From a virus, in the IMG/VR virus record IMGVR_UViG_3300032214_000986, positions 1 to 64,000 of that record: a stretch of DNA of 64,000 bases. The stretch is one strand, 5' to 3'. Numbering within the stretch: the first letter of the stretch is position 1; each line of letters starts with the position of its first letter. The notes beneath the pieces are model-generated. The model worked only from the letters and a program-made list of their open reading frames with translations, was not told the DNA's origin and did no database searches. Both the position numbers and the translations under genes were made by a program. Below are positions 644 to 54,986 of the stretch, piece after piece.

Positions 644-2935
644 TTAACAAGGGGGATTTAATAGGGTATATTCCGTAACTATACCACTAGCATTTATTAC
701 AACCCAATGTAACTCAGTAAAACGTGAGATAATACCATCAGCGGCAACTACAAAATGACCTTGTTGGTACGGGCTACTTGGGTCGTAATATTGACCAACA
801 AATGAACCAACATTTAAAGGCCCTGTTATAACTCCGGTTTGTCCCGCATATTGATAATTGTTGCATATAATAATTTGAGCAGCCTCTGGTGTAGCAACGT
901 AAGTAAACGAATCCCATGGTGCTAGGTCATTTTGTCTAAAACCATTCCAAAAAGTTGGTTGGGTATTAAGTGTAGGTGTAGGTGTTGGGGTTGGACTTAT
1001 AGTAGGTGTAGGTGTTGGGGTGCCCATTGTTGGTGTTGGGGTTGGTGTTGGGGTTGGTGGGATTAAACAATTGGGACACCAAAAATTAAATAATCGGTAT
1101 TGGCTCTCCAATAGTCTAAAATTATGTTGTATTGACGGAGATCCTAATGGTTCTGTATACATTCTAAATTGAGATATTCCTCCCATAAATGTCCCTCCAA
1201 AATTTTGTTCGACCAAGATATTTGTACTTAATCCACTATATGTTGTTGCAGATAAAATATTATTTGGGAATAATTCAGGGTCTTGTCTATATGGGCCATA
1301 CGGTGTTGTTGTTGACGAAAAAATTAAATGGTCATGTAAACCTTGTGACCCACCACCAAAAGATATATTAAAAGGTACCCCAATTTGTTTTTCTTTTTCG
1401 GTGTTTAATTCTCTTGGGATTATCTCCTCGAAGTTTTCAATCTCCATAAATTTATACCCATTAACGTATAACTTTAAAGTTCCCATCCTATAGAATGTAT
1501 CGTCAAACCATTTTTTATTAAAATTAACTTGATAAACTTTATTTTCTTTAGTTCCCCCGGAATGTGTTTCAGGCGGCATTATCAAATTATAAGACGTACC
1601 ATTTAATATCGATTGGTATGTAACTTTTCTAATATCATTTAATCCGCCTAAATTTAATAAGTCACAGTTTTCTATTGTTGTGTACCTCTCAAATACTGCA
1701 CTAATCATAACCCATCGGTCTTCAGTAATTGCGGTACAAACATATCCACAAACATCATAAATTGGTGGTGAACAAACTTCAGTAATTGTATAACCTGTTT
1801 GATAAGTTAAACCAGTTGTTAAACAACTTCCTGTCGTCACACAATCCCCGGTTATTTTAATGTACTTAACACACAGACTTGGATTTGCAGGACACCCGTT
1901 AAATCTTATTGACATACCGTTAGATAATACGTCAAATTTAGGGTCTAATGGTGGTACAGGAATTTGTTCCGTACAAGCACCACACCCACAACCAATATTG
2001 TGATATGCAGTTGTTGCACTTTTAGGGTAGACATTAATACAATTAGAATTAGTGGCTCCCGTATCGGAACACGCACATGTTGTTAATTCTGATAAACCTG
2101 AAGTAACTCTCGTATACCCACTATTCGACAATGGACTACCACTTGCGAAATGATAGTATTTATTCTCGGCTCTCGTACCAAAATAAAAAAACGTACCAGC
2201 GTTGTTATTATACACATCATTTAAGTATTGTTGGGTATTCGTATCCGCCGTGTAAATGTCACGAATTCTCGGTTTTAACATCATCTCAACAGTCCACCCT
2301 TTATTTACCCTTTCAGGGAATACTTCATAATCATAACCAAATAACTTATAAAACCCTTGGTAAAACCCCCCGTAAAGTTGTTGATAATAACCAATATAAG
2401 GGTCATAATCAGAAACAATATTGTATAATGTGTTTTTTGGTCTACCTGAAAAAACTTGATTGGGTGATAAAGTATAACCTGTAACCATATGAAGTTTCAT
2501 CCTCCTATCATAATAATGTGGGTGAAATTTATAATCGTTTCTAATACCCATTGAGTAGTACAAAGTGTTGCCTGACATACCGGTATATAAACCGTTATCT
2601 GTTGCAACTAAACCAACATCACAAGTACCTGTAAACGCAGAGTAACAACTTAAATCTAAATTATTTGGATTATAATAATTTTTAGAAACTATAGTTGCGC
2701 CTGAAATATATTGACCAAAACTAATACTATTTTGAGGGGAACAATCCGAACTCGTTATATCTATGTTAATTGGTAGTCTATTACCGTCATTTTCTGCAAT
2801 CAGATTAGTCGAGAAAACACTTTCTTGATTGTAATCCCCTTCATCTGCAGCTAAAGTTAAGTCAAAATATTGACCATATCTTAAATTAGATTTGTATTTT
2901 GGAAAATAATATGTATTTAGGTTCTGCGTCGGCAT
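644..2935 (-). CDS. Large virion structural protein (Cys/Thr/Gly-rich, ConA/LamG-like elements, Pro-Thr linker)
   Basis: 763 aa; WTVEMMLKP, LKLYVNG and FMGGISQFRMYTEPL resemble a split LamG-like fold; PT linker near the C-terminus; TATTTAT upstream. Confidence 0.55.
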   Translation of the reverse strand: MPTQNLNTYYFPKYKSNLRYGQYFDLTLAADEGDYNQESVFSTNLIAENDGNRLPINIDITSSDCSPQNSISFGQYISGATIVSKNYYNPNNLDLSCYSAFTGTCDVGLVATDNGLYTGMSGNTLYYSMGIRNDYKFHPHYYDRRMKLHMVTGYTLSPNQVFSGRPKNTLYNIVSDYDPYIGYYQQLYGGFYQGFYKLFGYDYEVFPERVNKGWTVEMMLKPRIRDIYTADTNTQQYLNDVYNNNAGTFFYFGTRAENKYYHFASGSPLSNSGYTRVTSGLSELTTCACSDTGATNSNCINVYPKSATTAYHNIGCGCGACTEQIPVPPLDPKFDVLSNGMSIRFNGCPANPSLCVKYIKITGDCVTTGSCLTTGLTYQTGYTITEVCSPPIYDVCGYVCTAITEDRWVMISAVFERYTTIENCDLLNLGGLNDIRKVTYQSILNGTSYNLIMPPETHSGGTKENKVYQVNFNKKWFDDTFYRMGTLKLYVNGYKFMEIENFEEIIPRELNTEKEKQIGVPFNISFGGGSQGLHDHLIFSSTTTPYGPYRQDPELFPNNILSATTYSGLSTNILVEQNFGGTFMGGISQFRMYTEPLGSPSIQHNFRLLESQYRLFNFWCPNCLIPPTPTPTPTPTMGTPTPTPTISPTPTPTPTLNTQPTFWNGFRQNDLAPWDSFTYVATPEAAQIIICNNYQYAGQTGVITGPLNVGSFVGQYYDPSSPYQQGHFVVAADGIISRFTELHWVVINASGIVTEYTLLNPPC
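970..1061 (-). repeat. Pro-Thr low-complexity repeat (coding)
   Basis: Encodes PPTPTPTPTPTMGTPTPTPTISPTPTPTPT. Confidence 0.9.
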
Positions 2936-2946
2936 ACTTTTTTATG

Positions 2947-2973
2947 ATAAATACTTTGTTTGGAGTATTTATA
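2947..2973. promoter_or_regulatory. Divergent pair of TATTTAT motifs (putative late promoters)
   Basis: ATAAATA at 2947-2953 precedes the minus gene starting at 2935; TATTTATA at 2966-2973 precedes the plus gene at 2987. Confidence 0.6.
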
Positions 2974-2986
2974 GGTAAAAGCCGGA

Positions 2987-3736
2987 ATGAAAAGTTATAA
3001 ATACTCAACAAAAGACAGAGCAGAAAGAGTTGCTAAAACTTTAGGGTGTACTGGATCTCATCATCATAATGAAAATGGTGAGAAAAAATTTATGCCGTGT
3101 AAGACTCACGAAATCTTTAAATCTAAACTAAAAAAAGATAAAAAAGATGAACAGGAAGTTACTGAACTTGTTGATACCGATGGTACTTGGTTATCATCAA
3201 GTATTGGTATTTTAGATCCGGCAAGTACAGGTATTGGGACAAAAACGACCGACCAAATAGTACAAGCAGCAAGAAATCCGAGAGACCCATTATTAAGAGG
3301 GTGGTACGGTTATTATGGTGAGGGCACAGTTAAAGAAGAAGACATGTCAAAAGCGTTCGGGTATGAGGACACAAAAGATTTAGACGCTAAAGATACGATT
3401 AAATATTTTGAAAAAAAATTAGGTGACGAGCAATCGGCAATAGAAAGAGCAGCATCATTCGGTAAAAAAGAAAAATTAGAAAAAAACGCACCTAAAAAAT
3501 TAAAAAGACTTAAAAACTTTATAGATAGATTAATCCTTAAAGAAAAAGAATTAGACGAATCTGAAGTACGTGAAGATAGAATAGTAGATAGAGATAAAAA
3601 AGATAATGATTTAACTAAAAAAAAATTAGAAGTATCTCCTCTTTTACTTAGAAATATTAGGTCAATAAAAAAAGCTGCTAAAGAAAATGGGATAACCTTT
3701 AAAGAGTTAGTACAAATAATGAAAGATGAACAGTAA
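2987..3736 (+). CDS. Hypothetical head-associated protein with N-terminal C/H motif (GCxGxHxH...MPCxxH)
   Basis: 249 aa ORF; potential metal-binding motif; many (V/L)xE sites. Confidence 0.55.
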   Translation: MKSYKYSTKDRAERVAKTLGCTGSHHHNENGEKKFMPCKTHEIFKSKLKKDKKDEQEVTELVDTDGTWLSSSIGILDPASTGIGTKTTDQIVQAARNPRDPLLRGWYGYYGEGTVKEEDMSKAFGYEDTKDLDAKDTIKYFEKKLGDEQSAIERAASFGKKEKLEKNAPKKLKRLKNFIDRLILKEKELDESEVREDRIVDRDKKDNDLTKKKLEVSPLLLRNIRSIKKAAKENGITFKELVQIMKDEQ

Positions 3737-4175
3737 TTTATACGATAGACAAGCAAAGTTACCAGAATCATTAATAAAACATTTAAAACAATGTTTTAAT
3801 TCCACCAATGGTGACACTAATACTGAAGGTTATAAAAGAAATCAAGAACTAACTAAAAGTGGTTTAGTTACTTACCAACAAATCAAAAGAATAAAAAATT
3901 GGTTTGATAGTTATAATGGTAATAAAGAAGATGCGCCATTTATTTTAAATGGTGGTGATAGAATGAATAATTGGTGTGATGAGGTTTTAAAAAATTGGAG
4001 GGGTTCTGATGATTCATCTAAAAAAATAAAATCAGATACTGGCATGCAAAACCAATATTTAGATTCACACGAAAAGAATTCTTTCAATTTAAATGATAAA
4101 CACACAACAACCGCAGATAGTTTATCAGTAACTGAAGAAATAAAAAGAATAAATAAACTTATAAAAGATATTTGA
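3726..4175 (+). CDS. Hypothetical phage protein
   Basis: 149 aa ORF overlapping the upstream gene; C-terminal VTEEIKRINKLI amphipathic motif. Confidence 0.6.
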   Translation: MNSNLYDRQAKLPESLIKHLKQCFNSTNGDTNTEGYKRNQELTKSGLVTYQQIKRIKNWFDSYNGNKEDAPFILNGGDRMNNWCDEVLKNWRGSDDSSKKIKSDTGMQNQYLDSHEKNSFNLNDKHTTTADSLSVTEEIKRINKLIKDI

Positions 4176-4176
4176 T

Positions 4177-4470
4177 ATGGCAATTCAATCAGATAAATTA
4201 GATTTTTCACAACCAAATAATGACCTATCTAAGATCGCCGAAGAGCAAAGAAAAAGACTTTTCCCAAGAAATGACTTCTCACCTGTTGACCAATATTCAT
4301 CGGTTCACCCTGACGCATTAGCAAATGGTGATAAGATTGGTAGAGGAACAGGAGTTGAGTTAGATATTTATAATAACAACATAGGTACAAGTACTGACGT
4401 TGCGGAAAGAAAAGACGACTTAAAGGTAAATAAATATTCACAAAACAACCCATATTATTCAGTACAATGA
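4177..4470 (+). CDS. Hypothetical phage protein
   Basis: 97 aa ORF tightly packed in the operon. Confidence 0.6.
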   Translation: MAIQSDKLDFSQPNNDLSKIAEEQRKRLFPRNDFSPVDQYSSVHPDALANGDKIGRGTGVELDIYNNNIGTSTDVAERKDDLKVNKYSQNNPYYSVQ

Positions 4471-4895
4471 AATTAATGAATAGTCTTAAAGGTTTAATTA
4501 CTGAGATTGCATCAATACAAGATATCCAGCACTCAATAAAAATGAAAAACGTTATGACAATAAATTATAACGGAAAAGAGTATGGTAGAGGGTATCGTGA
4601 TATCGAGCCAGTATGTTTTGGTGTTAGTAAATCAGGTAATTTTGTTTTAAGAGCTTGGGAAAGAGAGGGTTCGTCACACTCAAATAAAGTTGAAGGTAAC
4701 CCAATACCCGGATGGAGATTATTTAGAGTAGATAAAATATTGACTTACCAACTACAAGGAGATAAATTTACAGAGTCACGTCCATTGTATAACCCAAATG
4801 GTGATAAATCAATGTCTAGAGTTATTGTTAACGCAGTATTTGATAATCAGGGTAACGAGGAGGATAATATTAATAATTTAGAAAATTTAGCATAA
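4467..4895 (+). CDS. Stand-alone WYL-domain protein
   Basis: I.Y......R.IEP..FG......LRAW...GWRLFRVDKI matches the WYL pattern; no wHTH domain. Confidence 0.75.
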   Translation: MKLMNSLKGLITEIASIQDIQHSIKMKNVMTINYNGKEYGRGYRDIEPVCFGVSKSGNFVLRAWEREGSSHSNKVEGNPIPGWRLFRVDKILTYQLQGDKFTESRPLYNPNGDKSMSRVIVNAVFDNQGNEEDNINNLENLA

Positions 4896-4896
4896 T

Positions 4897-5517
4897 ATGG
4901 GAGCAGCAGAAGAATTAATGCAGAGACTCGCAGTCTCAAAAAAAATAATGGATAAACATAATGACCTAAAAAGAGGTGAGGTAAGAAACACAAATATGCC
5001 AATGGTCGAGGAATTTCAACCAACAAACGCATCGTATAATTTACCGCAAGAGTTTTTATCCGAAAACGTATCACCGAAACAAACACACGACCCTAGTCAG
5101 CCGTTAGATATGGAAAAAATTAAAAATTCAAAATTACCTGAAGAAATTAAAAGGTTAATGATAGAACAACCAATCGTACAACCTTCAACAGTAACACCAA
5201 CAATTTCAAATGATATTATTGAGGGAGCACAAAGATTAATGAATATGAATTCAAACTCCACAACACCACAAGAATATGTATCTAAGGGGGTAACAACAAA
5301 ACAACCATCACCATCACCATCTAATTTTAATATGAGTGAAATGAAATCTATGATACGTGACGTAGTTAGAGACACGGTAAGAGATGTTGTTAGAGAAGAA
5401 CTAAAAGATGCTGGTATGTTAGTTGAGTCAACTCAGAATTCAAATGAAACAATACAATTTAAAGTGGGTAATCATTTGTTCATAGGTAAAGTCAACAAAG
5501 TGAAAAAACTAAGTTAA
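4897..5517 (+). CDS. Hypothetical phage protein
   Basis: 206 aa ORF, last of the operon before a terminator. Confidence 0.65.
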   Translation: MGAAEELMQRLAVSKKIMDKHNDLKRGEVRNTNMPMVEEFQPTNASYNLPQEFLSENVSPKQTHDPSQPLDMEKIKNSKLPEEIKRLMIEQPIVQPSTVTPTISNDIIEGAQRLMNMNSNSTTPQEYVSKGVTTKQPSPSPSNFNMSEMKSMIRDVVRDTVRDVVREELKDAGMLVESTQNSNETIQFKVGNHLFIGKVNKVKKLS

Positions 5518-5519
5518 TC

Positions 5520-5545
5520 AAATCCACCTTAAGGGTGGATTTTTT
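5520..5545 (+). terminator. Rho-independent terminator
   Basis: AATCCACC-ttaag-GGTGGATT followed by a T tract. Confidence 0.8.
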
Positions 5546-5584
5546 GTTTTAAATATATTATTTTTTACTTAAATAATTTTTTAT

Positions 5585-6793
5585 ATGAGTAAAATAAGAG
5601 TATTAGTATTACCATCAGATAAGACAGGTGTTGGTAAATTTAGAAGTTTAGACCCACACATTTGTTTACAAAATAACCATTCAGATGAATTTCATGTTGA
5701 TATTGATTATGAACCAAGAGTTAATGATTTAAACTATTGGAAACAGTACGATATCGTTCATTTCCATAGAACAATCGGTCATGAGTATGAAAATTCTGTA
5801 GAATTAATAAAAAAAATTAATTCATTAGGTATTGTAACAATAGCCGACATCGACGACTATTGGTTGCCAACGAAAGAACACCCTGTACATAGTTTAGTAA
5901 TGGAACACCGTTTACATGAAAAAATTATGAACAATTTAAAAGTGGCTCAACATGTGACAACGACAACATCAGTTTTTGCAAAAGAAATATCCAAATTAAA
6001 TAAAAGTGTTCATATATTACCTAACGCGATAAACCCTAACGAACCACAATTTAAATATGAAACGGAACCTTCAGATAAGTTAAGATTTGGATGGTTAGGG
6101 GGGTCATCTCACCTTTACGATTTAAAATTATTAGATGGCACAATAAATAAATTAAAACCACAACAAGATAAATTTGAAATGTATCTATGTGGGTTCGATA
6201 CAAGAGGTACCGTTACTGAAATTAATCAGCAAACTAGAGAACAAAAACAAAGACCTATCACACCACAAGAGACTGTTTGGGCAAGGTATGAAGAAATTTT
6301 TACAAATAATTATTCTTTTGTTGACGACCAACACAAAGAATATTTAATGAGATTTGAGGATGTTCCATATGATGGTAAAACATTCTATAATAGAATTTGG
6401 ACAAAACCTGTGACTTCTTACGCATCTAATTATAGGTTATTTGACGTATCTTTAGCACCTATCAAAAATCACATTTTTAATAGAGTTAAGTCACAACTTA
6501 AAGTTATTGAGGCTGGGTTCTATAAAAAGGCAATTATCGCATCAAACATAGGTCCATATACAATAGATTTAAAACACGCACTTAAAAATGGTGAATTTAC
6601 TGATGGTAACGCACTTTTGGTTGATGAGGTTAGGAATCATAGTGATTGGTCAAAATACATGAAAAAATTAATTGATAACCCTAATTGGGCTTACGATTTA
6701 GGTCAAAGGTTATATGAAACCGTAAAAGACACTTACGACTTAAATAAAGTCACAAGAGATAGGGCGGAATTATATAAATCATTAATTAAATAA
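5585..6793 (+). CDS. Glycosyltransferase, GT-B/GT4-like
   Basis: DIDDYW, FGWLGGSSH and FDVSLAP...FNRVKSQLKVIEAG...IIAS motifs. Confidence 0.8.
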   Translation: MSKIRVLVLPSDKTGVGKFRSLDPHICLQNNHSDEFHVDIDYEPRVNDLNYWKQYDIVHFHRTIGHEYENSVELIKKINSLGIVTIADIDDYWLPTKEHPVHSLVMEHRLHEKIMNNLKVAQHVTTTTSVFAKEISKLNKSVHILPNAINPNEPQFKYETEPSDKLRFGWLGGSSHLYDLKLLDGTINKLKPQQDKFEMYLCGFDTRGTVTEINQQTREQKQRPITPQETVWARYEEIFTNNYSFVDDQHKEYLMRFEDVPYDGKTFYNRIWTKPVTSYASNYRLFDVSLAPIKNHIFNRVKSQLKVIEAGFYKKAIIASNIGPYTIDLKHALKNGEFTDGNALLVDEVRNHSDWSKYMKKLIDNPNWAYDLGQRLYETVKDTYDLNKVTRDRAELYKSLIK

Positions 6794-6795
6794 TT

Positions 6796-7251
6796 ATGGA
6801 CCAAAAAAAAGGAAAAATAGGATTCACCGCAGGTAATTTTGATTTACTCCATCCAGGATATATCTATACGTTCGAAACTGCTAAAGAAAATTGTGATTAT
6901 TTTATAGTATTCCTACAAAGAGACCCATCAGAGACAAGGTTTACTAAATATAAACCAGTCGTTCCTTTATATGAAAGATATAAAACATTGATGTCTATTA
7001 AATACGTAGATGAAGTTATTTGTTATGACGATGAAGAAGACTTACTTAGGTTAATAGAATTTTATAAACCTGATTTAAGAATTTTAGGTGATGATTATAT
7101 CGGTAAAAGATTTACAGGAGACCACCTCTCAATTGAAGTTCTTTACACGACAAGGTCACATAATTGGTCAACAACAAAAATAAAAGACCTAATAACAATA
7201 CAAACTTTAAAACAAAATCCAGAAATAATTAAAAAATTAAAAGATGATTAA
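6796..7251 (+). CDS. Cytidylyltransferase (TagD/RfaE-like)
   Basis: GNFDLLHPGY (HxGH-like), ER...L..IKYVDEV, SHNWSTT. Confidence 0.8.
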   Translation: MDQKKGKIGFTAGNFDLLHPGYIYTFETAKENCDYFIVFLQRDPSETRFTKYKPVVPLYERYKTLMSIKYVDEVICYDDEEDLLRLIEFYKPDLRILGDDYIGKRFTGDHLSIEVLYTTRSHNWSTTKIKDLITIQTLKQNPEIIKKLKDD

Positions 7252-7972
7252 TATACCTATAACAAAAATTTTATTTTTAGACATTGAAACCGTTGGTTTA
7301 TGTCGTAATTGGGAGGGGTGTAAAGAAAACCACCCTAATATTGCCGAACAATTTGTAAAATATTATGATTGGTTTTTAAAACGATTTCCTGAAGATAATG
7401 TGGAAGTAAGTGGTTTAGAAGAAGAACTACAAAAGATGAATGACGTTTATGAGAAAAGATCAGCACTTGTTCCTGAATTTGCAAAGATTGTTTGTGTGTC
7501 TATGGCATTCGTAACTAACGAAGGTATTAAACAACAAACGTTTTCCAATCACGATGAAAAACAATTGTTAATTGATGTTAGAAACTTATTGGACCGTTGT
7601 CATAAATTAGATTTTTATCTTTGTGGTCACAACCTTAAAAACTTCGATATCCCGATGTTAGCCAAACGAATGATTATCAATGGGATTATGCCATCAAAAA
7701 TGCTACCTTCATATGATACAAAACCTTGGGAAGTTAGAGCTATTGATACGAAGGAAATTTGGCAATATGGGTCATACACATCAATTGGTTCATTAGATTT
7801 GGTTTGTTCTACTATGGGTATCGAAACACCAAAGGATGGTCCTATCCACGGAGGAAATGTACATGAAGTATATTGGAACAATCAAAGTAGATTAAATGAA
7901 ATATCAGAATACTGTGAAAAGGATGTTAAAGTGTTGGTTGATTTTATAACAAAATTAAAAGAATTGAAATAA
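7244..7972 (+). CDS. DEDD 3'-5' exonuclease (PolB-exonuclease-like)
   Basis: LFLDIET, GHNLKNFDIP and YCEKDV correspond to ExoI/II/III. Confidence 0.85.
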   Translation: MINIPITKILFLDIETVGLCRNWEGCKENHPNIAEQFVKYYDWFLKRFPEDNVEVSGLEEELQKMNDVYEKRSALVPEFAKIVCVSMAFVTNEGIKQQTFSNHDEKQLLIDVRNLLDRCHKLDFYLCGHNLKNFDIPMLAKRMIINGIMPSKMLPSYDTKPWEVRAIDTKEIWQYGSYTSIGSLDLVCSTMGIETPKDGPIHGGNVHEVYWNNQSRLNEISEYCEKDVKVLVDFITKLKELK

Positions 7973-8571
7973 TGTTTGAGAGATTAAAAGAAATGAAAGA
8001 AGGTATGAAAATGGTTAAAGACCTTCAATCAAAATTCGGAAATTTAAATATGGAAAACCCAGAAGAAATGTTAAAATCTATGGGTATCACATCGGAAGAC
8101 TTAGAGTCTCATTTTACGGAGGCTATGATTAATAAAGTTCAGATGAAATACACTAACGATAGTGATAATAAAGAACCTGAATATGCTTATCAATCTGATT
8201 CTGGTTTCGATTTAAGATCGGTGGAAGACATTTGGGTTCAGGCAAATGATAGAAAATTAATACCAACAGGTTTAAGATTTGATATTCCTGATGGTTTTGA
8301 AATACAAGTAAGGTCTAAAAGTGGTTTAGCCCTAAATCAAGGTTTAATGGTTTTAAATTCGCCAGGTACTGTGGATAGTGGTTACCAAGGTGAGATTAAA
8401 GTAATAATGTTTAATACTACAAATCAAAAAATAAAAATAGAAAAGGGTCAAAAAATTGCACAAGCGGTTGTGTGTCCCGTAGTAAATGGAAGATGGATAG
8501 ATTTAATAAAAGTAGAACAACTTTCAGAAAAAGACAGAAACGATAAAGGATTTGGGAGTACAGGACTATGA
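7972..8571 (+). CDS. dut: dUTPase (trimeric) with N-terminal extension
   Basis: SGFDL, RSKSGLA, GTVDSGYQGEIKV, R...GFGSTG. Confidence 0.95.
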   Translation: MFERLKEMKEGMKMVKDLQSKFGNLNMENPEEMLKSMGITSEDLESHFTEAMINKVQMKYTNDSDNKEPEYAYQSDSGFDLRSVEDIWVQANDRKLIPTGLRFDIPDGFEIQVRSKSGLALNQGLMVLNSPGTVDSGYQGEIKVIMFNTTNQKIKIEKGQKIAQAVVCPVVNGRWIDLIKVEQLSEKDRNDKGFGSTGL

Positions 8572-9662
8572 TAACTATTGGATTTTCCACAAGAAATATT
8601 GATAAGTCTTTTATTGAGATGTTAAAGAAAACCTCCGGTGTTAGTAATACGGAGGTTATTCCTATTGAAAATAATGGGGAATATTCTTTAACTGAGGCGT
8701 ATAATAAGATACTTTCACAATCTAAAAATGATATTGTCATATTATGCCACGATGACATTTACTTCGATAGTAAAAATTGGGGTCAAAAAATCTTAAAGCA
8801 TTTTAAAAGAAATAATGATTATGGAATTTTAGGTGTTGCTGGCTCAGTTAGTTTACCAAAATCGGCAAAATGGTGGGAAGATTTCTCTAAGATGAGAGGA
8901 ATTGTAAACCACGAACATGAAGGCAAAAAGTGGGAGTCCAAGTATTCACCAAGTTTGGGGAATCAAATTGATGATGTGGTCTTAGTTGATGGTCTTTTTA
9001 TAGGGTTAAATAAAAATAACATTAAAAATAATTTTAACCCAGATGTAAAAGGATTCCATTTTTACGATGTCGATTTTTCTTTTAGAAATTATATCGAGGG
9101 AGTAAATATAGGGGTGATTTATGATGTTAGAATAACACATAAATCAATAGGTCAAACAAATGACCAATGGGAAAAGAATAGAGAACTGTTTGCCGAAAAC
9201 AATAAAAATCTATTACCAATTAAAATTAAAAAAGAGGTAAATAAAAACTCAAACTTAAAAATTTTAGTTTTCGAGAATGATTTTTATAAATGTGAGAATT
9301 TACTATCAACCCTAAAAAAAATAAAATTCACCCCATCTTTTTGTGGTATGATATACGATGAAAAGATAATTAAAAAATTAAAACTTAATAATGTAAAAAG
9401 TTTTAATATTAATGAACCTTGTGGATATAAACTTGGTGATGGGAAGTGGGGATTTAATAGTCCTAATGGATTTGTTCCTGCAGAGGCAAATAAATTATAT
9501 AAAATATCTGAAGTTAATTTTGATATCGTCCATGTTATGGATGACAACATATTACCAATTGTTAAATCACTTTACCCTAACTCCGATATTTTTTTACAAA
9601 ATAAATCATATAACTCGGAAGACGAATTAATAAACGATTATAATAATTTTTTAAATGGTTAA
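8568..9662 (+). CDS. Glycosyltransferase (GT2-like, Glyco_tranf_2_5 type)
   Basis: SLTEAYN, LCHDDI, GILGVAG, VDGLF, GFHFYDVDFS. Confidence 0.8.
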   Translation: MITIGFSTRNIDKSFIEMLKKTSGVSNTEVIPIENNGEYSLTEAYNKILSQSKNDIVILCHDDIYFDSKNWGQKILKHFKRNNDYGILGVAGSVSLPKSAKWWEDFSKMRGIVNHEHEGKKWESKYSPSLGNQIDDVVLVDGLFIGLNKNNIKNNFNPDVKGFHFYDVDFSFRNYIEGVNIGVIYDVRITHKSIGQTNDQWEKNRELFAENNKNLLPIKIKKEVNKNSNLKILVFENDFYKCENLLSTLKKIKFTPSFCGMIYDEKIIKKLKLNNVKSFNINEPCGYKLGDGKWGFNSPNGFVPAEANKLYKISEVNFDIVHVMDDNILPIVKSLYPNSDIFLQNKSYNSEDELINDYNNFLNG

Positions 9663-10446
9663 AATATTATCAGGATGGAGTAATAAAGGGGGGTCTACTT
9701 TCGCCTTTATAAATTTAACAAACGAATTAAACAAAAACGGAATAGATGCCACATTCTATGGTCCTCACAATTGGCATTTAGATAAATGTAAATCAGGATT
9801 ATTGGATAATACTTTTACACTCGATAAGGAAGATACAATAATTGTACATTTTTTAAATTTAGGTGTTAGACCTGACGTAAAAAGAGTTATCCTATCTTGC
9901 CATGAAAAGAATTTATTTGAGGTCGGAGATATGAAACCTTTTTGGGACGAAGCGGTCTTTATCAATAATAAACATAGAAACTATCATGAGAGATATACAG
10001 GACCATTTAACATTATTCCTAATTTAAGGGAACCATTAGTTAAAAATGAAAAGAGTGAAGATGTTATTGGCGTTGCAGGAGTTGTGGGTTCGATAGATGA
10101 AAATAAACAAACCCATATCTCAATTCAAAGAGCATTAAGTGATGGTAACAAAAAAGTCTATCTTTTTGGTAATGTTACAGACACCAATTACTATAACACA
10201 CAAGTCAAACCATTAATTGACGGAGATATTGTTGTTGAATATGGTTACGTATCCGACAAACAAAAAATGTACGATATGGTTAGTTCAGTTTATCTTTCGT
10301 CTAAAAGTGAAGTGGCATCCTTAGTTAAGGATGAATGTGAAAGTACCGGTACAAATTTTAAAGGTAATTATGCAACAAATAATGACTCTGAATTTTTAAC
10401 AAATGAAGAAATCATTAATAAATGGAAAAACATTTTAAAACTATGA
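9655..10446 (+). CDS. Glycosyltransferase, GT-B-like
   Basis: GGST N-terminal motif, VGSIDENKQ, YLSSKSE...V..E donor-binding pattern. Confidence 0.65.
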   Translation: MVKILSGWSNKGGSTFAFINLTNELNKNGIDATFYGPHNWHLDKCKSGLLDNTFTLDKEDTIIVHFLNLGVRPDVKRVILSCHEKNLFEVGDMKPFWDEAVFINNKHRNYHERYTGPFNIIPNLREPLVKNEKSEDVIGVAGVVGSIDENKQTHISIQRALSDGNKKVYLFGNVTDTNYYNTQVKPLIDGDIVVEYGYVSDKQKMYDMVSSVYLSSKSEVASLVKDECESTGTNFKGNYATNNDSEFLTNEEIINKWKNILKL

Positions 10447-11156
10447 TAATCGTCACTACATTATATAATGCGGAAAATTATGTTGAAAGATGTATTGGTT
10501 CATTAATGGGTCAAACATATAAAGATTTCACATGTTACATCACAGATGATTTGTCGACAGACAGAAGTGTTGATTTGGTTAAAAAAATGATATTAGGTGA
10601 CAATAGATTTATTTTAATTGAGAATCAAATTAAAATGTACCAACCCGGAAATTACGACCAGGTCATACGTAATAACCCAAATATTGGGGATAGCGAGATT
10701 ATCGTTGAGGTTGATGGTGATGATTGGTTACCTGATTCAAACACCCTTAAAAGAATACATAATACGTATGAGGATGAGAATGTTTGGATAGCGAACGGTA
10801 GTTTTAAATACTCTACAGGGGCCATGGGATTTTCTTCTAAACAAACAAATTTTGAAAATTTAAGGAACTCCAGATTTACGGCATCCCATATTAGGACTTG
10901 GAGGGCGTTTTTATGGAGAAAAATAAAAGAGGAAGATTTAAAGGATGAAAATGGAACGTATTGGAAAGTAACGGGAGATTTATCGTTTATGTTCCCAATG
11001 TTAGAAATGGCCGGTGAAAAAAGATACAAATTTATGGAAGATGTGAACTATGTTTATAACGAATTAAACCCAATCAATGACCATAAAGTGGATTTAACAT
11101 TAGTTAATGTTGTTGCCGACAAAATTAGAAAAATGAAACCGTACGAGATATTATGA
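10443..11156 (+). CDS. Glycosyltransferase family 2
   Basis: LYNAENYVERCI.S, TDDLSTD, VDGDDW. Start moved to ATG 10443 (ATGA overlap with upstream stop). Confidence 0.85.
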   Translation: MIIVTTLYNAENYVERCIGSLMGQTYKDFTCYITDDLSTDRSVDLVKKMILGDNRFILIENQIKMYQPGNYDQVIRNNPNIGDSEIIVEVDGDDWLPDSNTLKRIHNTYEDENVWIANGSFKYSTGAMGFSSKQTNFENLRNSRFTASHIRTWRAFLWRKIKEEDLKDENGTYWKVTGDLSFMFPMLEMAGEKRYKFMEDVNYVYNELNPINDHKVDLTLVNVVADKIRKMKPYEIL

Positions 11157-11932
11157 TAAGTTGTTTTTTACAGGGAGGATTAGGTAACCAATTATTTCAA
11201 ATATCAGCAACAGTATCACTATCATTAAAGAATAATATTACGTATGGTATTAATATGGATTTATGTCATACCCCAAACCAAGGGTTTACTGCGAACAAAT
11301 ACAATGAAACATTATTTAAAAACATAAATAAAATAGGTAACTACCCTTTTAAATTTATATATGACGAACCTAAATTTAGTTTCACCGAAATCCCTTTCAA
11401 AGACGAAATGATAATTAGAGGTTATTTTCAAAGTGAAAAATATTTTTTAGAAAACAAAAAAGAAATAATAGATTTATTCCACATACCTGAAGAATCAAAA
11501 ACAAAAGTTTTAGATTTTTTTAAACAAAAAAAAGTTTCAGGGACAACGACATGTGTACATGTAAGAAGAGGTGATTATTTAAAATTTGACGATTTTCATT
11601 CAGTATGTAATGAAAATTATTATAACCAAGCAATAGATTTAATCGGAGACTCAACATTTATATTTATTTCGGATGATATGGAATGGGTTAATAAAACCTT
11701 TAATTCTGAAAATTTTATAATGTCAGAATTTAATAATGAGATTGACGATTTTACGCTAATGACTATGTGTGATAATGTGATAACATCAAATAGTTCGTTT
11801 AGTTGGTGGGGTTCTTACCTAAATAAAAATAATAATAAAAAGGTGATAACACCAAACAGATGGTTTGGTCCTTCAGGTCATAAAGATATTGAAGATGTAT
11901 ATCCTAAAGATTGGATCAGACTTGATTTTTAA
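11153..11932 (+). CDS. Alpha-1,2-fucosyltransferase-like (GT11)
   Basis: GGLGNQLFQ, GYFQSEKYF, HVRRGDY, NSSFSWWG. Confidence 0.9.
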   Translation: MISCFLQGGLGNQLFQISATVSLSLKNNITYGINMDLCHTPNQGFTANKYNETLFKNINKIGNYPFKFIYDEPKFSFTEIPFKDEMIIRGYFQSEKYFLENKKEIIDLFHIPEESKTKVLDFFKQKKVSGTTTCVHVRRGDYLKFDDFHSVCNENYYNQAIDLIGDSTFIFISDDMEWVNKTFNSENFIMSEFNNEIDDFTLMTMCDNVITSNSSFSWWGSYLNKNNNKKVITPNRWFGPSGHKDIEDVYPKDWIRLDF

Positions 11933-11967
11933 TTAACCAATAACTATTTTTTTCTAAAAAAGATATT

Positions 11968-13269: not shown

Positions 13270-13278
13270 TCGGAAAAA

Positions 13279-14646: not shown

Positions 14647-15289
14647 TATAACGTTAATCGCTTTAACAAGTGTTAGAATCCCTGAAACAATTAAAGCTTT
14701 AGAGTATAGTTGTAGAGGGGTAAAATTTGGTAAGGTAAAAATAGCATCAGATATTAAACCTGATAATTTACCAGATTTTATCACACACGAATTTACTGAA
14801 AAAAGTTCAAATATTGATGAGTGGAATTATAATATAATTTATAATTTATCAAAACACATTGATACCGAATTTGCATTATTAATTCACGATAATGGATTTG
14901 TTGTGAATCCTGAATCATGGAGAGATGAATTTTTAAATTATGACTATATTGGTGCACCTTGGCCATTACCAGTTGATGATTTTTCATATAGAGACATTAA
15001 CGGAAATATAATTAGACAAGGTAATAGTGTTTCATTACGAAGTAAAAGATTATTAGATGTCCCAATCAAATTAAATTTGGAATGGAAACCGTTTCATGGT
15101 TTTACTAATGAAGATGGGTTTATATGTGTAAACTACAGACACAAATATCTTGAAGAAGGATGTAAATTTGCTGAGATTGATGTTGCAAAATATTTCTCAC
15201 ATGAAAGTATGATACCTGAAATACAGGGAATTAAACCTTTTGTCTTCCATAATTATTTGGGAACAAATAACCAATACCCAAGATTTTAA
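14630..15289 (+). CDS. DUF5672-like putative glycosyltransferase
   Basis: FLNYDYIGAPW, GNSVSLRSKRLL, NEDGF. Confidence 0.75.
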   Translation: MIELPNITLIALTSVRIPETIKALEYSCRGVKFGKVKIASDIKPDNLPDFITHEFTEKSSNIDEWNYNIIYNLSKHIDTEFALLIHDNGFVVNPESWRDEFLNYDYIGAPWPLPVDDFSYRDINGNIIRQGNSVSLRSKRLLDVPIKLNLEWKPFHGFTNEDGFICVNYRHKYLEEGCKFAEIDVAKYFSHESMIPEIQGIKPFVFHNYLGTNNQYPRF

Positions 15290-15292
15290 AAA

Positions 15293-16778: not shown

Positions 16779-16785
16779 AAAAAAT

Positions 16786-17418: not shown

Positions 17419-17421
17419 TAT

Positions 17422-18324: not shown

Positions 18325-18327
18325 AAC

Positions 18328-25054: not shown

Positions 25055-25061
25055 TATTATT

Positions 25062-27006: not shown

Positions 27007-27008
27007 TT

Positions 27009-28949: not shown

Positions 28950-28951
28950 TT

Positions 28952-30722: not shown

Positions 30723-30745
30723 GTATTTATAGATAAAACAAAAAA

Positions 30746-32224: not shown

Positions 32225-32226
32225 TC

Positions 32227-36897: not shown

Positions 36898-37005
36898 TTG
36901 TTTTGTAAAAAGCAATGCGTTATGCGTTTATTTTACAGATAAATATATACGTTTTTAAAAAAAATCCTTTTTTGGGACAATTAACAGAAAAAAACTTGTA
37001 TAAAT

Positions 37006-45382: not shown

Positions 45383-45583
45383 TTAATTGTTTAGTCCATT
45401 AAATCCGCCCAAAGCAACCGAATTACATTGTAACGAAACTACGTCAGTTGCCTTAGAAACATTATCACTCCAAACTGGTTTTGGGGTTGTAAAAGTAACG
45501 ATGGTACCTGTGGTTGCTCCTGTACCAGGAACGTAACCCGTAACGACAGTCGTGTAATAAGATGTACATGCAGTTGTAGACAT
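45383..45583 (-). CDS. Small Thr-rich protein, probably virion-associated
   Basis: 66 aa; TATTTATA upstream at 45598-45605. Confidence 0.6.
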   Translation of the reverse strand: MSTTACTSYYTTVVTGYVPGTGATTGTIVTFTTPKPVWSDNVSKATDVVSLQCNSVALGGFNGLNN

Positions 45584-51877: not shown

Positions 51878-51915
51878 TAGTGTAATCATTTATAAACCCT
51901 TTAAAAAAAAAGTAT

Positions 51916-52359: not shown

Positions 52360-52360
52360 A

Positions 52361-52395: not shown

Positions 52396-52411
52396 TATTT
52401 AAAATTTTAAC

Positions 52412-52900: not shown

Positions 52901-53008
52901 AATTTAGTTTTATTTTTATTGTTTTTATTATCTTTTACATATAAATATACTATATGCTTAAAAAAATACATTCATTAATGAATTTCATATAAATATTTTA
53001 ATTTTAAA

Positions 53009-53284
53009 TTAACCCCCCATTGGTGGATTAGGGTCTGTCCATTCTGATGTTGCCAAAATAACCAATATTTCCTCATAAGTGTAAGGACCGTCTTTTGTAG
53101 TTAGATTAGATACACATTCCGGCATTACACCGTCCCACTTAACGAATGTTTTTGTTTCATCAACCGATTTTCTAACGGTCTCTTCAGATGTCTCCAATAC
53201 TTGTGCGAAGTCAATCTGTTCTAATTCCGATACGTTAAATATCATGAATTCTCTGTTTTCGTAATCTTGTAATTGTGTTTCCAT
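53009..53284 (-). CDS. Small acidic protein accompanying fibre genes (chaperone/cap-like)
   Basis: IDFAQVLETS.ETVRKS.D.TKTFVKW...P...GPYT.EEI.....EW; follows a LamG protein. Confidence 0.55.
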   Translation of the reverse strand: METQLQDYENREFMIFNVSELEQIDFAQVLETSEETVRKSVDETKTFVKWDGVMPECVSNLTTKDGPYTYEEILVILATSEWTDPNPPMGG

Positions 53285-53297
53285 ATTTTATAAATAG

Positions 53298-54986
53298 TTA
53301 TAATCCAAATCTTGATTTTTGAGCGTTATAGTTTTGTAGAACCTCATTACTACTTAGAGGTCGATTATAAATCTGAGTTAACGCAACATTACCACTCCAA
53401 TAGTTACTCACCGATGTGTTGTTAATTCTGCCAACACCTAAAACTCTTGCACTATCTCCTGTTGAAAAGGTACCAAAATTATTAGGGGTATCAAACGAAA
53501 TTCCATTTTTATAAAATTGACAATTCGTCCCATTCCCAACACAAGTAACAAGCACCCAATTATTATCAGTGAAAAAATTATTTTTAGTTTGATTAAGAGT
53601 AAATTGACCTGAAGTCCCATACGTTATTGACAACCACAATCTTCCAGAAGTGGCAGAATGACCTAAATAGAATCCTTTAGAACCGGCAGTTCCATCATTA
53701 TTACCCATAAAATATCTTGCGGTTGTTAAATCACTAAGTTTAACCCAGGCACTGATTGTAAAAATACCCGTATTTTGTATGAACGAAAATGTTGACGTAG
53801 TTCCTATGTTTGTGACATAATCATCAACTCCATCAAAAACTATAGACCCTCCGCCATCTGTACTATATGTTGGACCATTTGTTAATGTTCCGGTACCTCC
53901 GCTCACTCCACTAATGTTATTCCAAGTTGTACCTGTACCGGGATATGACACACCATATCCCGCATCCAAATAATTAACCAATCCATTTGTCACTATGTTT
54001 TCACCCAAGAATCTTGGGAATTGTGCTTGGTAGTTTTGTAAAACTTCCGTTGAGGATATTTCTCTATTGTAGATTTTGGTTGTTGAAATATTACCAATAA
54101 GGTCATCACCTATTTGTAAATTATAGGTATTAGTTGATAAATTACCAGAACCAACAGGATTACCCTGAGAAACCCCATTAATATAAAGTCTCCCTCCGTT
54201 AGAATATGTCCATACTACGTTACACCATTGATTTAATGGAATAACCCCACTATCAGGAGAAACAATTCCCCATACACCTCCTCTAGTTGCTAATACTCTT
54301 ATTATATTTGGGCTATATGTTCCTGCAAAGTATAATTGGAAATTACCGTCTAATGTTCCGTTATATTTCTTTAAAAAATTTATAGAGTAAGTATCTGTCC
54401 TATAACTGGTGGGATAAAACCAACAATCTACCGATATGTTGTTTGCAATATCTAATGAATTACTATCCGATACTGTAATTATATCATCAACACCATCAAA
54501 CACGATTGATCCACCTTTGGTTGGGTTATAAGTCGGTCCATTAGTTAGTGTACCATTATTTCCACTATAGGATAAATCATACAAGGTTGTTCCCGATCTC
54601 GAATATGATGGTGTAAATCCTGCGTCAAGATTTAACACCAACCCATTTGTGACTATAGATTCATAATCCTTATTTACACAAACATTATTTGTTTGCGTTG
54701 CATACCAATTCAAGCATTGGGTTATTCCCGTAAATGTTTGTCCCGCTAAATTATTTGTAAATGTTATCAATTCCGCATCGTTATTTGCCGAATAAAAACT
54801 TATATTACTTTCTTGACTTGCATTATATTGATATACAGTATACCCACTAACGACAGGACTAACCCCATTGTATGTTTTTGTAACATTTGATGGGCCTTTA
54901 CCGACATCACCAGTACCAATAAAGAAATTACCTTTCTTTAATGAAAATGTGTCTCCTGTTGTTGAATATTTTATTGTATTTGGCAT
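53298..54986 (-). CDS. Fibre/receptor-binding protein with two LamG (ConA-like) domains
   Basis: Two copies of IVTNGLV..LDAG...SY...GTT....GTLTNGPTY....GGSIVFDGVDD...IYNR..SS.EVLQNY. Confidence 0.8.
   Translation of the reverse strand: MPNTIKYSTTGDTFSLKKGNFFIGTGDVGKGPSNVTKTYNGVSPVVSGYTVYQYNASQESNISFYSANNDAELITFTNNLAGQTFTGITQCLNWYATQTNNVCVNKDYESIVTNGLVLNLDAGFTPSYSRSGTTLYDLSYSGNNGTLTNGPTYNPTKGGSIVFDGVDDIITVSDSNSLDIANNISVDCWFYPTSYRTDTYSINFLKKYNGTLDGNFQLYFAGTYSPNIIRVLATRGGVWGIVSPDSGVIPLNQWCNVVWTYSNGGRLYINGVSQGNPVGSGNLSTNTYNLQIGDDLIGNISTTKIYNREISSTEVLQNYQAQFPRFLGENIVTNGLVNYLDAGYGVSYPGTGTTWNNISGVSGGTGTLTNGPTYSTDGGGSIVFDGVDDYVTNIGTTSTFSFIQNTGIFTISAWVKLSDLTTARYFMGNNDGTAGSKGFYLGHSATSGRLWLSITYGTSGQFTLNQTKNNFFTDNNWVLVTCVGNGTNCQFYKNGISFDTPNNFGTFSTGDSARVLGVGRINNTSVSNYWSGNVALTQIYNRPLSSNEVLQNYNAQKSRFGL

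What the first reader, a model, noticed from the sequence alone, without database searches (positions are those of the whole stretch)
644..54986. Candidate phage-encoded virion O-glycosylation system with a [ST]-[GA]-x-[ST] sequon
Seen (hand counts, approximate): the tetrapeptide [ST][GA]x[ST] (SGAT, TGYT, SAFT, TGLT, SGFT...) occurs about 16 times in 644-2935 (16 of about 26 [ST][GA] dipeptides have S/T at +3), about 13 times in 30746-32224 (13 of about 21) and about 10 times in fibre 53298-54986. It occurs 4 times in the capsid protein, all in its variable central region (TAIT, SAYT, SGFS, SGFT), and twice in the 66-aa protein at 45383. The 680-aa ClpC has about one. The same window encodes roughly 15-18 glycosyltransferase-like proteins and sugar-nucleotide enzymes. 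Established: some mycobacteriophages glycosylate virions with their own GTs; cytoplasmic protein GTs such as Aah/TibC exist; the Bacteroidota O-glycosylation sequon is D-[ST]-[AILVMT], which differs. Inference: the motif is an acceptor sequon for a phage initiating GT that coats outer virion proteins with a complex glycan.
Basis: partly seen in the sequence, partly recalled or inferred. Interest (0 to 1): 0.9.

Follow-up and report, generated by a model that had tools for sequence, protein, structure and literature searches.

The report
Ser/Thr-Gly-x-Ser/Thr tag on phage proteins
A large uncultured freshwater phage writes the four-residue word Ser/Thr-Gly/Ala-x-Ser/Thr far too often into a few of its late particle-type proteins, in a lineage that is also rich in sugar-transfer genes, so the word may mark sugar-attachment sites, but no chemistry shows this and no single enzyme could be tied to it.

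Summary
The counts are exact. The motif is strongly enriched in two orphan late proteins: 644-2935 has 16 against 2.8 expected, and 30746-32224 has 13 against 1.7. Enrichment is weak in fibre 53298-54986 (10 against 4.1). It is not significant in the capsid protein or the 66-aa protein.

The motif is not required by the fold. Of 109 full-length family representatives, 29 carry none. Motif-rich relatives mostly place it at other positions. Two unrelated proteins gain it in the same lineages. Those lineages hold more GT2 genes (rho 0.73). All of this rests on about one deep split, with only 2 independent pairs.

A true TibC-type protein O-glycosyltransferase lies just past the window. It sits in a cassette with giant (Gly-x-Ser)n fibres. 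That cassette is missing at the expected position in three relatives that keep the motif.

Verdict: the tag is real and lineage-specific. A glycosylation sequon is the best reading, at about 0.4, and is unproven. The scan has noted similar motifs on other phage DNA before (AI notes, not independent evidence).

The parts
644..2935 (-). 763-aa orphan late protein, the richest motif carrier (16 sites). It has a conserved body (about residues 1-625), a Pro-Thr linker, and a variable C-terminal domain.
   Evidence: Counts. There are 1253 database homologues, covering 82% of the query with variable lengths. The family median is 14 motifs in the body. Pfam finds nothing. The AF2 model has pLDDT 66 and gives only weak ConA-like jelly-roll fold hits, E above 0.009. 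TATTTAT lies 11 nt upstream.
30746..32224 (+). 492-aa orphan late protein with 13 motif sites. The C-terminal half is made of tandem Ig/FN3-like sandwiches.
   Evidence: Counts. At least 2853 homologues. AF2 pLDDT is 66, with fold hits to titin, RbmA and FN3 tandems. BFVD returns only uncharacterised phage proteins. The family is bimodal for the motif.
33481..35307 (-). T4 gp23-type major capsid protein (608 aa). Four motif sites lie in its central insertion. Not significantly enriched.
   Evidence: Pfam Gp23 6e-72. 4 observed against 2.4 expected. All four sites have a hydrophobic x (4 against 0.84, z 3.4). Site 328 keeps the pattern in 70 of 70 relatives with varying letters.
53298..54986 (-). 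Fibre-like protein with two Laminin_G_3 modules. Weak motif excess (10 against 4.1).
   Evidence: Its paralogue 55241-57013 has 2 against 5.0 expected.
45383..45583 (-). 66-aa Thr-rich protein with two motif sites, no more than composition gives.
   Evidence: 2 against 0.94 expected, p 0.24.
2987..22317 (+). Co-directional glycan-gene cluster. It holds GT2-type genes (8568, 10422, C-terminal half of 13279), two GT11 genes (11153, 17422), a GT17-like gene (19248), DUF5672 and DUF3431 proteins, a DegT aminotransferase (11968), an RmlD-like domain, GDP-mannose 4,6-dehydratase (19994), an epimerase (20961), and two small nucleotidyltransferases (6796, 21871). A dUTPase and an exonuclease are interspersed.
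   Evidence: Pfam. The nucleotidyltransferases best match rfaE domain II and TagD, both far below cut-off. No hydrophobic 19-mer occurs in any ORF of the cluster.
23990..25874 (+). Two conserved glycosyltransferase-like genes (23990-25054, GT-B-like; 25062-25874, GT2) just upstream of the late block 26641-32688.
   Evidence: Pfam; PDB sequence hits. Both are present in 58 of 58 close relatives with at least 6.3 kb of upstream sequence. They are also present in 27 of 38 loci whose 30746 homologue has at most 1 motif.
57070..64000 (+). Start of a second sugar operon: a GT4-FkbM-DegT fusion, a methyltransferase, a PglD-like acetyltransferase and a GT2. It continues past the window to a 706-aa GT4 + TibC-like protein at genome 64074-66194. 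It converges on two giant (Gly-x-Ser)n fibre genes at genome 66830-76066.
   Evidence: Pfam. TibC PDB match 2e-60 with four aligned iron-finger cysteines. Fibre translation; 289 and 345 motif hits.

Best explanation
The word hydrophobic-[ST]-[GA]-x-[ST] is a lineage-specific tag laid onto loops, mostly at strand borders. It marks a few late, particle-type proteins of this roughly 300-kb far-T4-like phage, chiefly 644-2935 and 30746-32224. The capsid insertion and one fibre carry it faintly.

The most likely use is as an acceptor site for cytoplasmic O-glycosylation by soluble phage enzymes. The many other transferases and the GDP-fucose and amino-sugar genes would then extend the glycan.

Shown: the enrichment, its specificity, that the fold does not require it, its joint appearance in unrelated proteins, and the presence of a TibC-type protein glycosyltransferase.

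Inferred: that the tag is glycosylated at all, and which enzyme starts the chain. The two conserved transferases 23990 and 25062 are not tied to it. The TibC-type enzyme is most likely dedicated first to the (Gly-x-Ser)n fibres, whose repeat is the same word in polymer form.
For: (1) The enrichment is real and specific: z 8.3 and 8.9, shifted patterns flat, and no DNA word. Among 72 T4 ORFs, including all fibre, baseplate, Hoc and capsid genes, no structural protein exceeds z 2.2.

(2) The fold does not need it.
- Of 109 full-length representatives of the 30746 family, 29 have no motif. 44 of 110 rows (query included) have 4 or more.
- Well-supported branches force at least 11 switches.
- For 12 of the 13 query sites, only 1-5 of 43 other motif-rich representatives keep the pattern at that column.
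- Five query sites lie in insertions that the motif-poor clade lacks.
- 264 instances spread over 50 column clusters.

(3) Unrelated proteins change together. The 644 homologue has a mean of 15.3 motifs (n=12) where the 30746 homologue has at least 4, and 2.2 (n=14) where it has at most 1; rho 0.76. The capsid shows 5.1 against 2.3 expected in rich lineages and 3.0 against 1.9 in poor ones. PhoH and the 23990 transferase show no excess.

(4) Motif load follows GT2 gene count across 38 records (rho 0.73; 0.77 per 100 kb). Four motif-free genomes that are 96-100% complete have 0-1 GT2 hit and no GDP-mannose dehydratase-grade hit.

(5) The enzymology is present. There is a TibC-type domain with all four iron-finger cysteines. 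No hydrophobic segment occurs in any glycan-cluster ORF, and no Bac_transf hit was found. Published TibC sites are serines followed by Gly or Ala (PMC4358343, passages). [quoted passage not shown] Motif position 0 is in coil in 26 of 29 sites of the two models.

(6) The same word is the repeat unit of the giant fibres. These pair with TibC-type genes here, in cultured Microcystis phage Mel-JY01, and in 12 of 51 non-duplicate IMG/VR loci. A (G-x-[ST])n ORF occurs in 16 of all 80 such loci and in 0 of 160 control loci.
Against: - No chemical evidence exists.
- The comparative signals rest on roughly one deep split: 2 independent pairs, sign test p 1. Within each clade, the motif loads of the two proteins do not track each other.
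- No enzyme co-varies with the motif. 23990 and 25062 occur in 27 of 38 motif-poor loci. Homologues of 5585 and 8568 occur in 4 of 5 and 3 of 5 complete motif-poor genomes.
- The TibC-type gene is missing from the covered syntenic region of three relatives whose 30746 homologues still carry 7, 4 and 11 motifs.
- There are exceptions to the GT link: a record with 0 motifs and 4 GT2 hits, and one with 2 motifs and 5 GT2 hits.
- Motif S/T residues are no better conserved than other S/T in the 30746 family (p 0.97) and only modestly better in the 644 family (p 0.008).
- Hydrophobic residues at -1 and often at +2 suggest partly buried, structural positions.
- TibC was reported to modify Ser, not Thr, whereas about half of the sites here start with Thr.
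- The models are of medium confidence (pLDDT 66) and no coordinates were available, so exposure is not shown.
- Virion location of the two proteins is only inferred.
Confidence: 0.4

Rival explanations
1. The word is a structural or assembly element with no modification. Examples would be a Ser/Thr-capped turn with a small residue at the start or end of a beta-strand. One lineage adopted it in a few interacting particle proteins, for instance to build a shared interface. The sugar genes would serve something else.
For: - Hydrophobic residues flank the word: 11 of 13 sites in 30746-32224 have one at -1.
- Many sites sit exactly at coil-to-strand borders.
- Seven hot-spot column clusters hold 125 of 264 instances.
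- Motif S/T residues are not specially conserved.
- No glycosyltransferase co-varies.
- The motif persists without the TibC cassette.
Against: - Homologues of the same fold do without it: 29 of 109 have none.
- Positions turn over between motif-rich relatives.
- Two unrelated folds gain it together.
- T4 structural proteins, including Ig-like Hoc, show nothing similar.
- G and A interchange at single sites, which argues against a positive-phi glycine turn. That argument is my inference.
Confidence: 0.3
2. The glycan clusters act on targets other than these proteins: host envelope glycans, phage DNA, or only the (Gly-x-Ser)n fibres. Their presence alongside the motif in one lineage would then be coincidence of descent.
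For: - The association has only 2 independent contrasts.
- The conserved pair 23990/25062 is kept by motif-free lineages.
- 23990 is nearest in sequence to PDB entry 8xsg, deposited as a 'putative glycosyltransferase'. A paper on a glucoside glucosyltransferase holds that code, but only its search listing was seen.
- The TibC operon and the fibres are lost or replaced as one 24-kb cassette.
- TibC-type genes sit beside repeat fibres in other phages.
Against: - No membrane protein, polyprenyl-phosphate transferase, flippase-like or polymerase-like ORF was found in 120 kb. That is only about 40% of the genome.
- No thymidylate-synthase-type hydroxymethylase was found in the same 120 kb.
- GDP-fucose synthesis and two GT11 genes are not known parts of DNA modification. 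That statement rests on my recall.
Confidence: 0.3
3. The tag is read by something other than a glycosyltransferase: another modification enzyme, or a docking partner such as the lectin-like fibres of the same phage.
For: It shares the lineage-specific, multi-protein pattern of the best explanation. No initiating transferase could be assigned. The phage encodes several lectin-type modules: Laminin_G_3, Fibrinogen_C and a ConA-like body.
Against: No kinase or other modifying enzyme was seen among the Pfam-scanned genes. The only protein-modifying enzyme identified is the TibC-type transferase.
Confidence: 0.08

Closest known systems
TibC/TibA and Aah/AIDA-I: bacterial autotransporter heptosyltransferases (BAHT) of E. 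coli
   Same: A soluble cytoplasmic enzyme O-glycosylates many Ser residues of a beta-rich surface protein. The phage protein at genome 64074-66194 matches TibC at 2e-60, with the four iron-finger cysteines aligned. Reported TibC sites are Ser followed by Gly or Ala. The acceptor is a strand-loop-strand element rather than a strict sequence.
   Different: - The domain here is fused behind a GT4 domain.
- It lies next to collagen-like (Gly-x-Ser)n fibre genes, not an autotransporter.
- Half of the motif sites begin with Thr.
- The motif on the core proteins persists in relatives that lack the enzyme at the syntenic place.
- The donor sugar is unknown.
Virion glycosylation of mycobacteriophages (Che8, Corndog, Myrna) by phage-encoded glycosyltransferases
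   Same: Phage-encoded transferases near structural genes decorate particle proteins. I saw this only as cited in a passage of PMC12619734. The primary paper was not held.
   Different: There, the glycans are reported at the C-termini of capsid and tail-tube subunits. Here the capsid C-terminus has no Ser/Thr tract, and the candidate sites are internal loops of other proteins, written as a four-residue word.
BclA-type collagen-like glycoproteins of Bacillus and Clostridioides spores
   Same: Gly-x-Thr/Ser triplet fibres serve as dense O-glycan carriers with dedicated transferases. The basis is my recall plus search listings, for example PMC7157674 on SgtA and BclA3.
   Different: This applies to the giant fibres at genome 66830-76066, not to the globular motif carriers. 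The repeats here lack proline, and the neighbouring enzyme is of BAHT type.
Chlorovirus PBCV-1 capsid glycosylation by virus-encoded enzymes
   Same: The virus carries its own GDP-fucose pathway and soluble transferases and glycosylates its capsid at atypical sites in the cytoplasm. The basis is recall; only titles and abstracts were seen (PMC5408694, PMC9614988).
   Different: That system is eukaryotic, and its glycans are N-linked. There is no shared motif.
General O-glycosylation of Bacteroidota, sequon D-[ST]-[AILVMT]
   Same: A short sequon marks many proteins. The nearest cultured relatives by capsid sequence (about 42% identity) include Flavobacterium phages, so the host may belong to this phylum.
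   Different: Particle proteins are made in the cytoplasm.

Membership tests
BAHT (TibC/Aah) protein O-heptosyltransferases; applies to the 706-aa protein at genome 64074-66194 | Sequence homology to the TibC catalytic GT-B domain | tested here: met
   phmmer against PDB: 4rb4/4rap, E 2e-60, query residues 391-705 aligned to TibC 63-386.
BAHT (TibC/Aah) | Iron-finger of four cysteines (TibC Cys339, 342, 358, 370 per PMC4358343) | tested here: met
   All four cysteines align in the printed alignment. The residue numbers come from the paper passage.
BAHT (TibC/Aah) | Encoded next to its autotransporter substrate | tested here: not met
   The neighbours are two (Gly-x-Ser)n fibre genes. No autotransporter was seen in the scanned genes.
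BAHT (TibC/Aah) | Uses ADP-heptose; forms a dodecamer | not testable with these tools
   Two small nucleotidyltransferases best match rfaE domain II, at 69 and 68 bits against a cut-off of 181.5, nearly tied with TagD. This is inconclusive for heptose supply.
Glycosylation sequon (acceptor word of a transferase) | Occurs more often than composition predicts in the target proteins only | tested here: met
   z 8.3 and 8.9 in two proteins. 64 of the other 69 window ORFs have z below 2. T4 control.
Glycosylation sequon | Solvent-exposed position | tested here: inconclusive
   Position 0 is in coil in 26 of 29 sites, but the models have pLDDT 66 and no coordinates were returned. Hydrophobic flanks argue for partial burial.
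Glycosylation sequon | Presence follows presence of the enzyme across genomes | tested here: inconclusive
   GT2 count against motif load gives rho 0.73, but with only 2 independent pairs. The named candidates and the TibC-type gene do not follow the motif.
Glycosylation sequon | Sugar found on the residue | not testable with these tools
   This needs mass spectrometry.
Fibronectin-III E-F loop word (x-T-G-L-x, recalled) | The motif sits once per FN3/Ig domain, in those domains | tested here: not met
   The Ig/FN3-like sandwiches are in the C-terminal half. Yet only 6 of 264 motif instances in 44 motif-rich representatives fall beyond query residue 350. Same-fold homologues lack the word.
Mycobacteriophage-type virion glycosylation | Ser/Thr-rich C-terminal extension on the capsid or tail-tube subunit | tested here: not met
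   The capsid C-terminus, read, has no such tract. The tail tube was not identified.

The most novel reading that the evidence does not exclude
A large clade of uncultured jumbo phages uses a written O-glycosylation code, [ST]-[GA]-x-[ST]. The code is shared between globular particle proteins and proline-free (Gly-x-Ser)n fibres. Soluble phage enzymes, including BAHT-type transferases, would read it. Sites would be gained and lost over evolution much as N-glycan sequons are on animal-virus envelope proteins.
Probability: 0.3. Interest if true: 0.85.

Novelty: new variant of a known kind. Interest (0 to 1): 0.6.

Why it matters
If the tag is an acceptor site, it would be the first sequence-defined O-glycosylation code on phage particles. 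Sugar coats of uncultured phages could then be predicted from sequence alone. It would extend a transferase family known only from bacterial adhesins to phage particles. It would also give a handle on how large aquatic phages mask or tune their surfaces, affecting adsorption, stickiness and escape from host or grazer recognition.

The comparative pattern is unusual whatever its cause: a fold that exists with and without the word, positional turnover, and joint gain in unrelated proteins.

My searches listed no paper describing a BAHT-type enzyme or such a motif in phages. Only those two searches support that statement.

Tried and rejected
**Explanations tested and rejected**
- DNA-level word (restriction or promoter-like): rejected, because codons at the 33 sites vary.
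- General property of beta-rich phage structural proteins: rejected by T4. Across 72 ORFs the highest value was the helicase UvsW, z 4.6, and structural proteins stayed at or below 2.2. It is also rejected by the non-enriched neighbours 27009-28949, 29151-30722 and 35344-36915 and their families.
- FN3 E-F loop explanation: rejected.
- Fold-intrinsic motif: rejected.
- The two motif-rich proteins being paralogues: no similarity, best BLASTP E 0.57.
- Extra purifying selection on motif Ser/Thr: not found in the 30746 family and modest in the 644 family.

**Enzyme candidates tested**
- 23990 and 25062 as motif-specific enzymes: rejected.
- 5585 and 8568: homologues are present in motif-poor complete genomes. 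In the motif-poor records that match, the 8568 homologue is a short frame of 231-251 aa, some with internal stops. In 12 of the 13 matching records whose 30746 homologue has at least 4 motifs, and in the two matching records with 1-2 motifs, it is a frame of 498-670 aa. I did not follow this up.
- TibC-type enzyme as the starter for the core proteins: not supported. It was found in 5 of 19 motif-bearing records and in 0 of 10 motif-free records. Most of these records are fragments.

**Function searches that gave nothing useful**
- Function of the two proteins: Pfam, PHROGs, PDB fold search, BFVD and the ESM Atlas gave no named function.
- tblastn of 30746, 23990 and 25062 against cultured phages: no match.

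**Literature limits**
- No paper on Mel-JY01 was found.
- The primary mycobacteriophage paper is not held.
- Lu et al. 2014, which defines TibA heptosylation motifs, was not seen.
- Supplements are closed, so site lists in supplements of PMC4358343 and PMC5000012 could bear on the acceptor word.

Complex prediction, read laying, the look-up of sequencing runs and the RNA tools were not used.

**Rows dropped**
- One search kept 109 of the 150 listed representatives (length 430-520 aa).
- One search dropped 29 of 80 loci as exact duplicates of the core.
- Searches used only records of at least 90 kb.

Full report
**What the window is.**
The window is the first 64 kb of a 120,084-base viral contig, estimated about 40% complete, which implies a genome near 300 kb. 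It encodes:
- a T4 gp23-type capsid protein, a gp20-type portal and a T4-type large terminase;
- an S77 prohead protease and a Clp-type ATPase.

The nearest cultured capsid sequences are about 42% identical over 55% of the protein. They are Flavobacterium phage immuto and Microcystis phage Mel-JY01; Rhodothermus phage RM378 follows at 37%.

**The observation.**
Every hand count was reproduced.
- Two proteins stand out among 71 window ORFs and 134 contig ORFs: 644-2935 (16 against 2.8 expected) and 30746-32224 (13 against 1.7).
- Beyond the window, two giant fibres whose (Gly-x-Ser)n repeat is the word itself also score.
- The fibre 53298-54986 is marginal.
- The capsid protein, the 66-aa protein, the paralogous fibre 55241-57013 and the neighbouring late proteins are not enriched.
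- The word is specific. S/T at +2 or +4 is not favoured. A hydrophobic residue precedes it in 11 of 13 and 8 of 16 sites, and x is often hydrophobic.
- Codons vary, so the signal is in the protein.
- T4 shows nothing comparable in any structural protein.

**What the carriers are.**
Both proteins are orphans in Pfam and PHROGs, yet both belong to very large environmental families.
- 30746-32224 ends in tandem Ig/FN3-like sandwiches.
- 644-2935 has a weakly ConA-like jelly-roll body rich in invariant cysteines, then a Pro-Thr linker, then a variable C-terminal domain.
It precedes 37 of 134 genes, nearly all in the structural parts of the contig.
- Their presence in the particle is inferred, not shown.

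**Is the word needed by the fold? No.**
A profile search of 1.84 billion representatives found 719 family clusters.
- Among the 109 full-length proteins of the 150 listed, 29 have no motif, 42 have at most one, and 43 have four or more. 38% have z above 3.
- The tree needs 22 changes of the motif-rich label, and well-supported branches force at least 11.
- For 12 of the 13 query sites, only 1-5 of 43 other motif-rich representatives carry the pattern at that column.
- Five query sites lie in insertions absent from the motif-poor clade.
- At other sites the poor clade keeps the frame but not the word.
- Across 44 motif-rich rows, 264 instances fall in 50 column clusters, with seven hot spots holding 125 instances. 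Almost none lie in the C-terminal Ig-like part.

This is the behaviour of a tag laid over a scaffold, not of a fold signature. Alignment error in variable loops at about 30% identity is a caveat.

**Do unrelated proteins change together? Yes, at clade level.**
- In 29 records that hold both genes, the 644 homologue carries 7-20 motifs (mean 15.3, mean z 9.5, n=12) where the 30746 homologue has at least 4. It carries 0-5 (mean 2.2, n=14) where the 30746 homologue has at most 1; rho 0.76.
- The capsid protein and 29151-30722 show a mild twofold excess only in the rich lineages. PhoH and the 23990 transferase show none.
- Within each clade there is no correlation, so this is essentially one evolutionary contrast.

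**Link to sugar genes.**
- In the window, Pfam supports 11 GT-type or GT-associated genes and 7 sugar-nucleotide or tailoring enzymes. These include GDP-mannose dehydratase, an epimerase, two GT11 genes and two DegT domains.
- No ORF of either cluster has a hydrophobic 19-mer, and no Bac_transf hit exists in the contig. This fits assembly on a soluble acceptor, but 60% of the genome is unseen.
- Across 38 records, the motif load of the 30746 homologue follows GT2 gene count (rho 0.73) and density (rho 0.77).
- Four motif-free genomes that are 96-100% complete have 0-1 GT2 hit and no strong GDP-mannose dehydratase hit.
- The tree yields only two independent pairs (sign test p 1). There are exceptions in both directions.

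**Which enzyme? None could be assigned.**
- The conserved pair 23990/25062 is present in 58 of 58 close relatives with enough upstream sequence. It is also present in 27 of 38 motif-poor loci.
- Homologues of 5585 (no family, highly conserved) and 8568 occur in motif-poor complete genomes.
- Following notes of other first readers on this genome, I tested the 706-aa protein just past the window. Its C-terminal half is a clear TibC relative (2e-60) with the four iron-finger cysteines.
- Published TibC sites are serines followed by Gly or Ala. [quoted passage not shown] Heptosylated TibA peptides are rich in hydrophobic-S-G-G-S (passages of PMC4358343 and PMC3835316). This resembles the word here.
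- Genetically, however, the enzyme belongs to a cassette. In one relative, the whole stretch corresponding to 52.4-76 kb is replaced by about 6 kb of other sequence. That stretch holds two fibres, the second sugar operon and both giant fibres.
- In three relatives with the syntenic region covered, the enzyme is absent while the 30746 homologue keeps 7, 4 and 11 motifs. In four relatives that have the enzyme, the counts are 13, 9, 13 and 8.
- The enzyme recurs next to (Gly-Thr/Ser-Ser)n ORFs in cultured Mel-JY01. There the repeat ORF is unannotated, on the + strand, under a − strand CDS.
- A (G-x-[ST])n ORF of that kind lies within 10 kb in 16 of 80 IMG/VR loci, against 0 of 160 control loci. 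A motif-rich ORF (z at least 5) lies within 10 kb in 12 of the 51 non-duplicate loci.

The enzyme's first substrate is therefore most likely the repeat fibres.

**Reading.**
The tag is real, protein-specific and lineage-specific, and it behaves like a sequon. An O-glycosylation acceptor word is the best single explanation (about 0.4). The starter enzyme is unidentified, the comparative support is phylogenetically thin, and a purely structural or interface role (about 0.3) is not excluded. The rival readings overlap, so these numbers are not meant to sum to one.

The scan's earlier AI notes describe similar [S/T]-G-x-T or Ser-Gly tags and the TibC-fibre pairing in other phage genomes. I read them after my own tests. 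They agree with my results but are not independent evidence.

Noticed in passing
window 644-2935 (-), residues about 625-655 and onward: A Pro-Thr repeat linker separates the conserved body from a C-terminal domain that differs between relatives. Homologue lengths run 530-1004 aa with 82% query cover. This layout is typical of a swappable binding module.
   Followed up: partly
window 644-2935 (-), residues about 287-400: A cluster of invariant cysteines (C287, C289, C299, C318, C365, C371, C396 in 54 aligned homologues) lies inside the motif-dense stretch. It may be a disulfide or metal knot.
   Followed up: no
L087 (Mel-JY01 record) 635-3052 +: An 805-aa ORF with a long (Gly-Thr/Ser-Ser)n tract and a globular C-terminus is not annotated. 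The record instead annotates a − strand CDS at 739-2298 over the repeat. This is probably a strand mis-call.
   Followed up: partly
genome 52412-76066, compared with L084-L086: One relative keeps synteny on both sides but replaces this 24-kb block with about 6 kb that includes a 1517-aa ORF. The block holds two lectin-type fibres, the second sugar operon and both giant fibres. It behaves as a host-range-type cassette.
   Followed up: partly
window 8568-9662 and 9655-10446 (+): In 12 of the 13 matching records whose 30746 homologue has at least 4 motifs, and in the two matching records with 1-2 motifs, the 8568 homologue is one open frame of 498-670 aa. In the matching motif-poor records it is a frame of 231-251 aa, and three of those have internal stops. 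In this window it looks split into two genes.
   Followed up: no
window 6796-7251 and 21871-22317 (+): Two small nucleotidyltransferases best match the heptose-1-phosphate adenylyltransferase domain of HldE. Both are far below cut-off and nearly tied with glycerol-3-phosphate cytidylyltransferase. They could supply a nucleotide sugar to the TibC-type enzyme.
   Followed up: partly
window 25874-26617 (+): A conserved 247-aa protein with a weak Sigma70 region 2 hit (E 0.005) lies between the two conserved transferases and the late block. It is present in 59 of 80 related loci. It is a candidate late sigma factor.
   Followed up: no
window 55241-57013 (-): A fibre paralogue carries a C-terminal fibrinogen-like globular domain (Pfam Fibrinogen_C, 1.5e-7), which is unusual in a phage.
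   Followed up: no
window 33481-35307 (-): The capsid protein is 608 aa. A central stretch of about 230 residues is not covered by the Gp23 model or by cultured relatives, which cover 53-55% in two pieces. It is a lineage-specific insertion domain.
   Followed up: partly
window 5585-6793 (+): A 402-aa protein with no family in Pfam or NCBIfam is conserved at 41-83% identity in 24 of 37 related records, including motif-poor complete genomes. It is a core gene of unknown function. No family search found a glycosyltransferase domain in it.
   Followed up: partly
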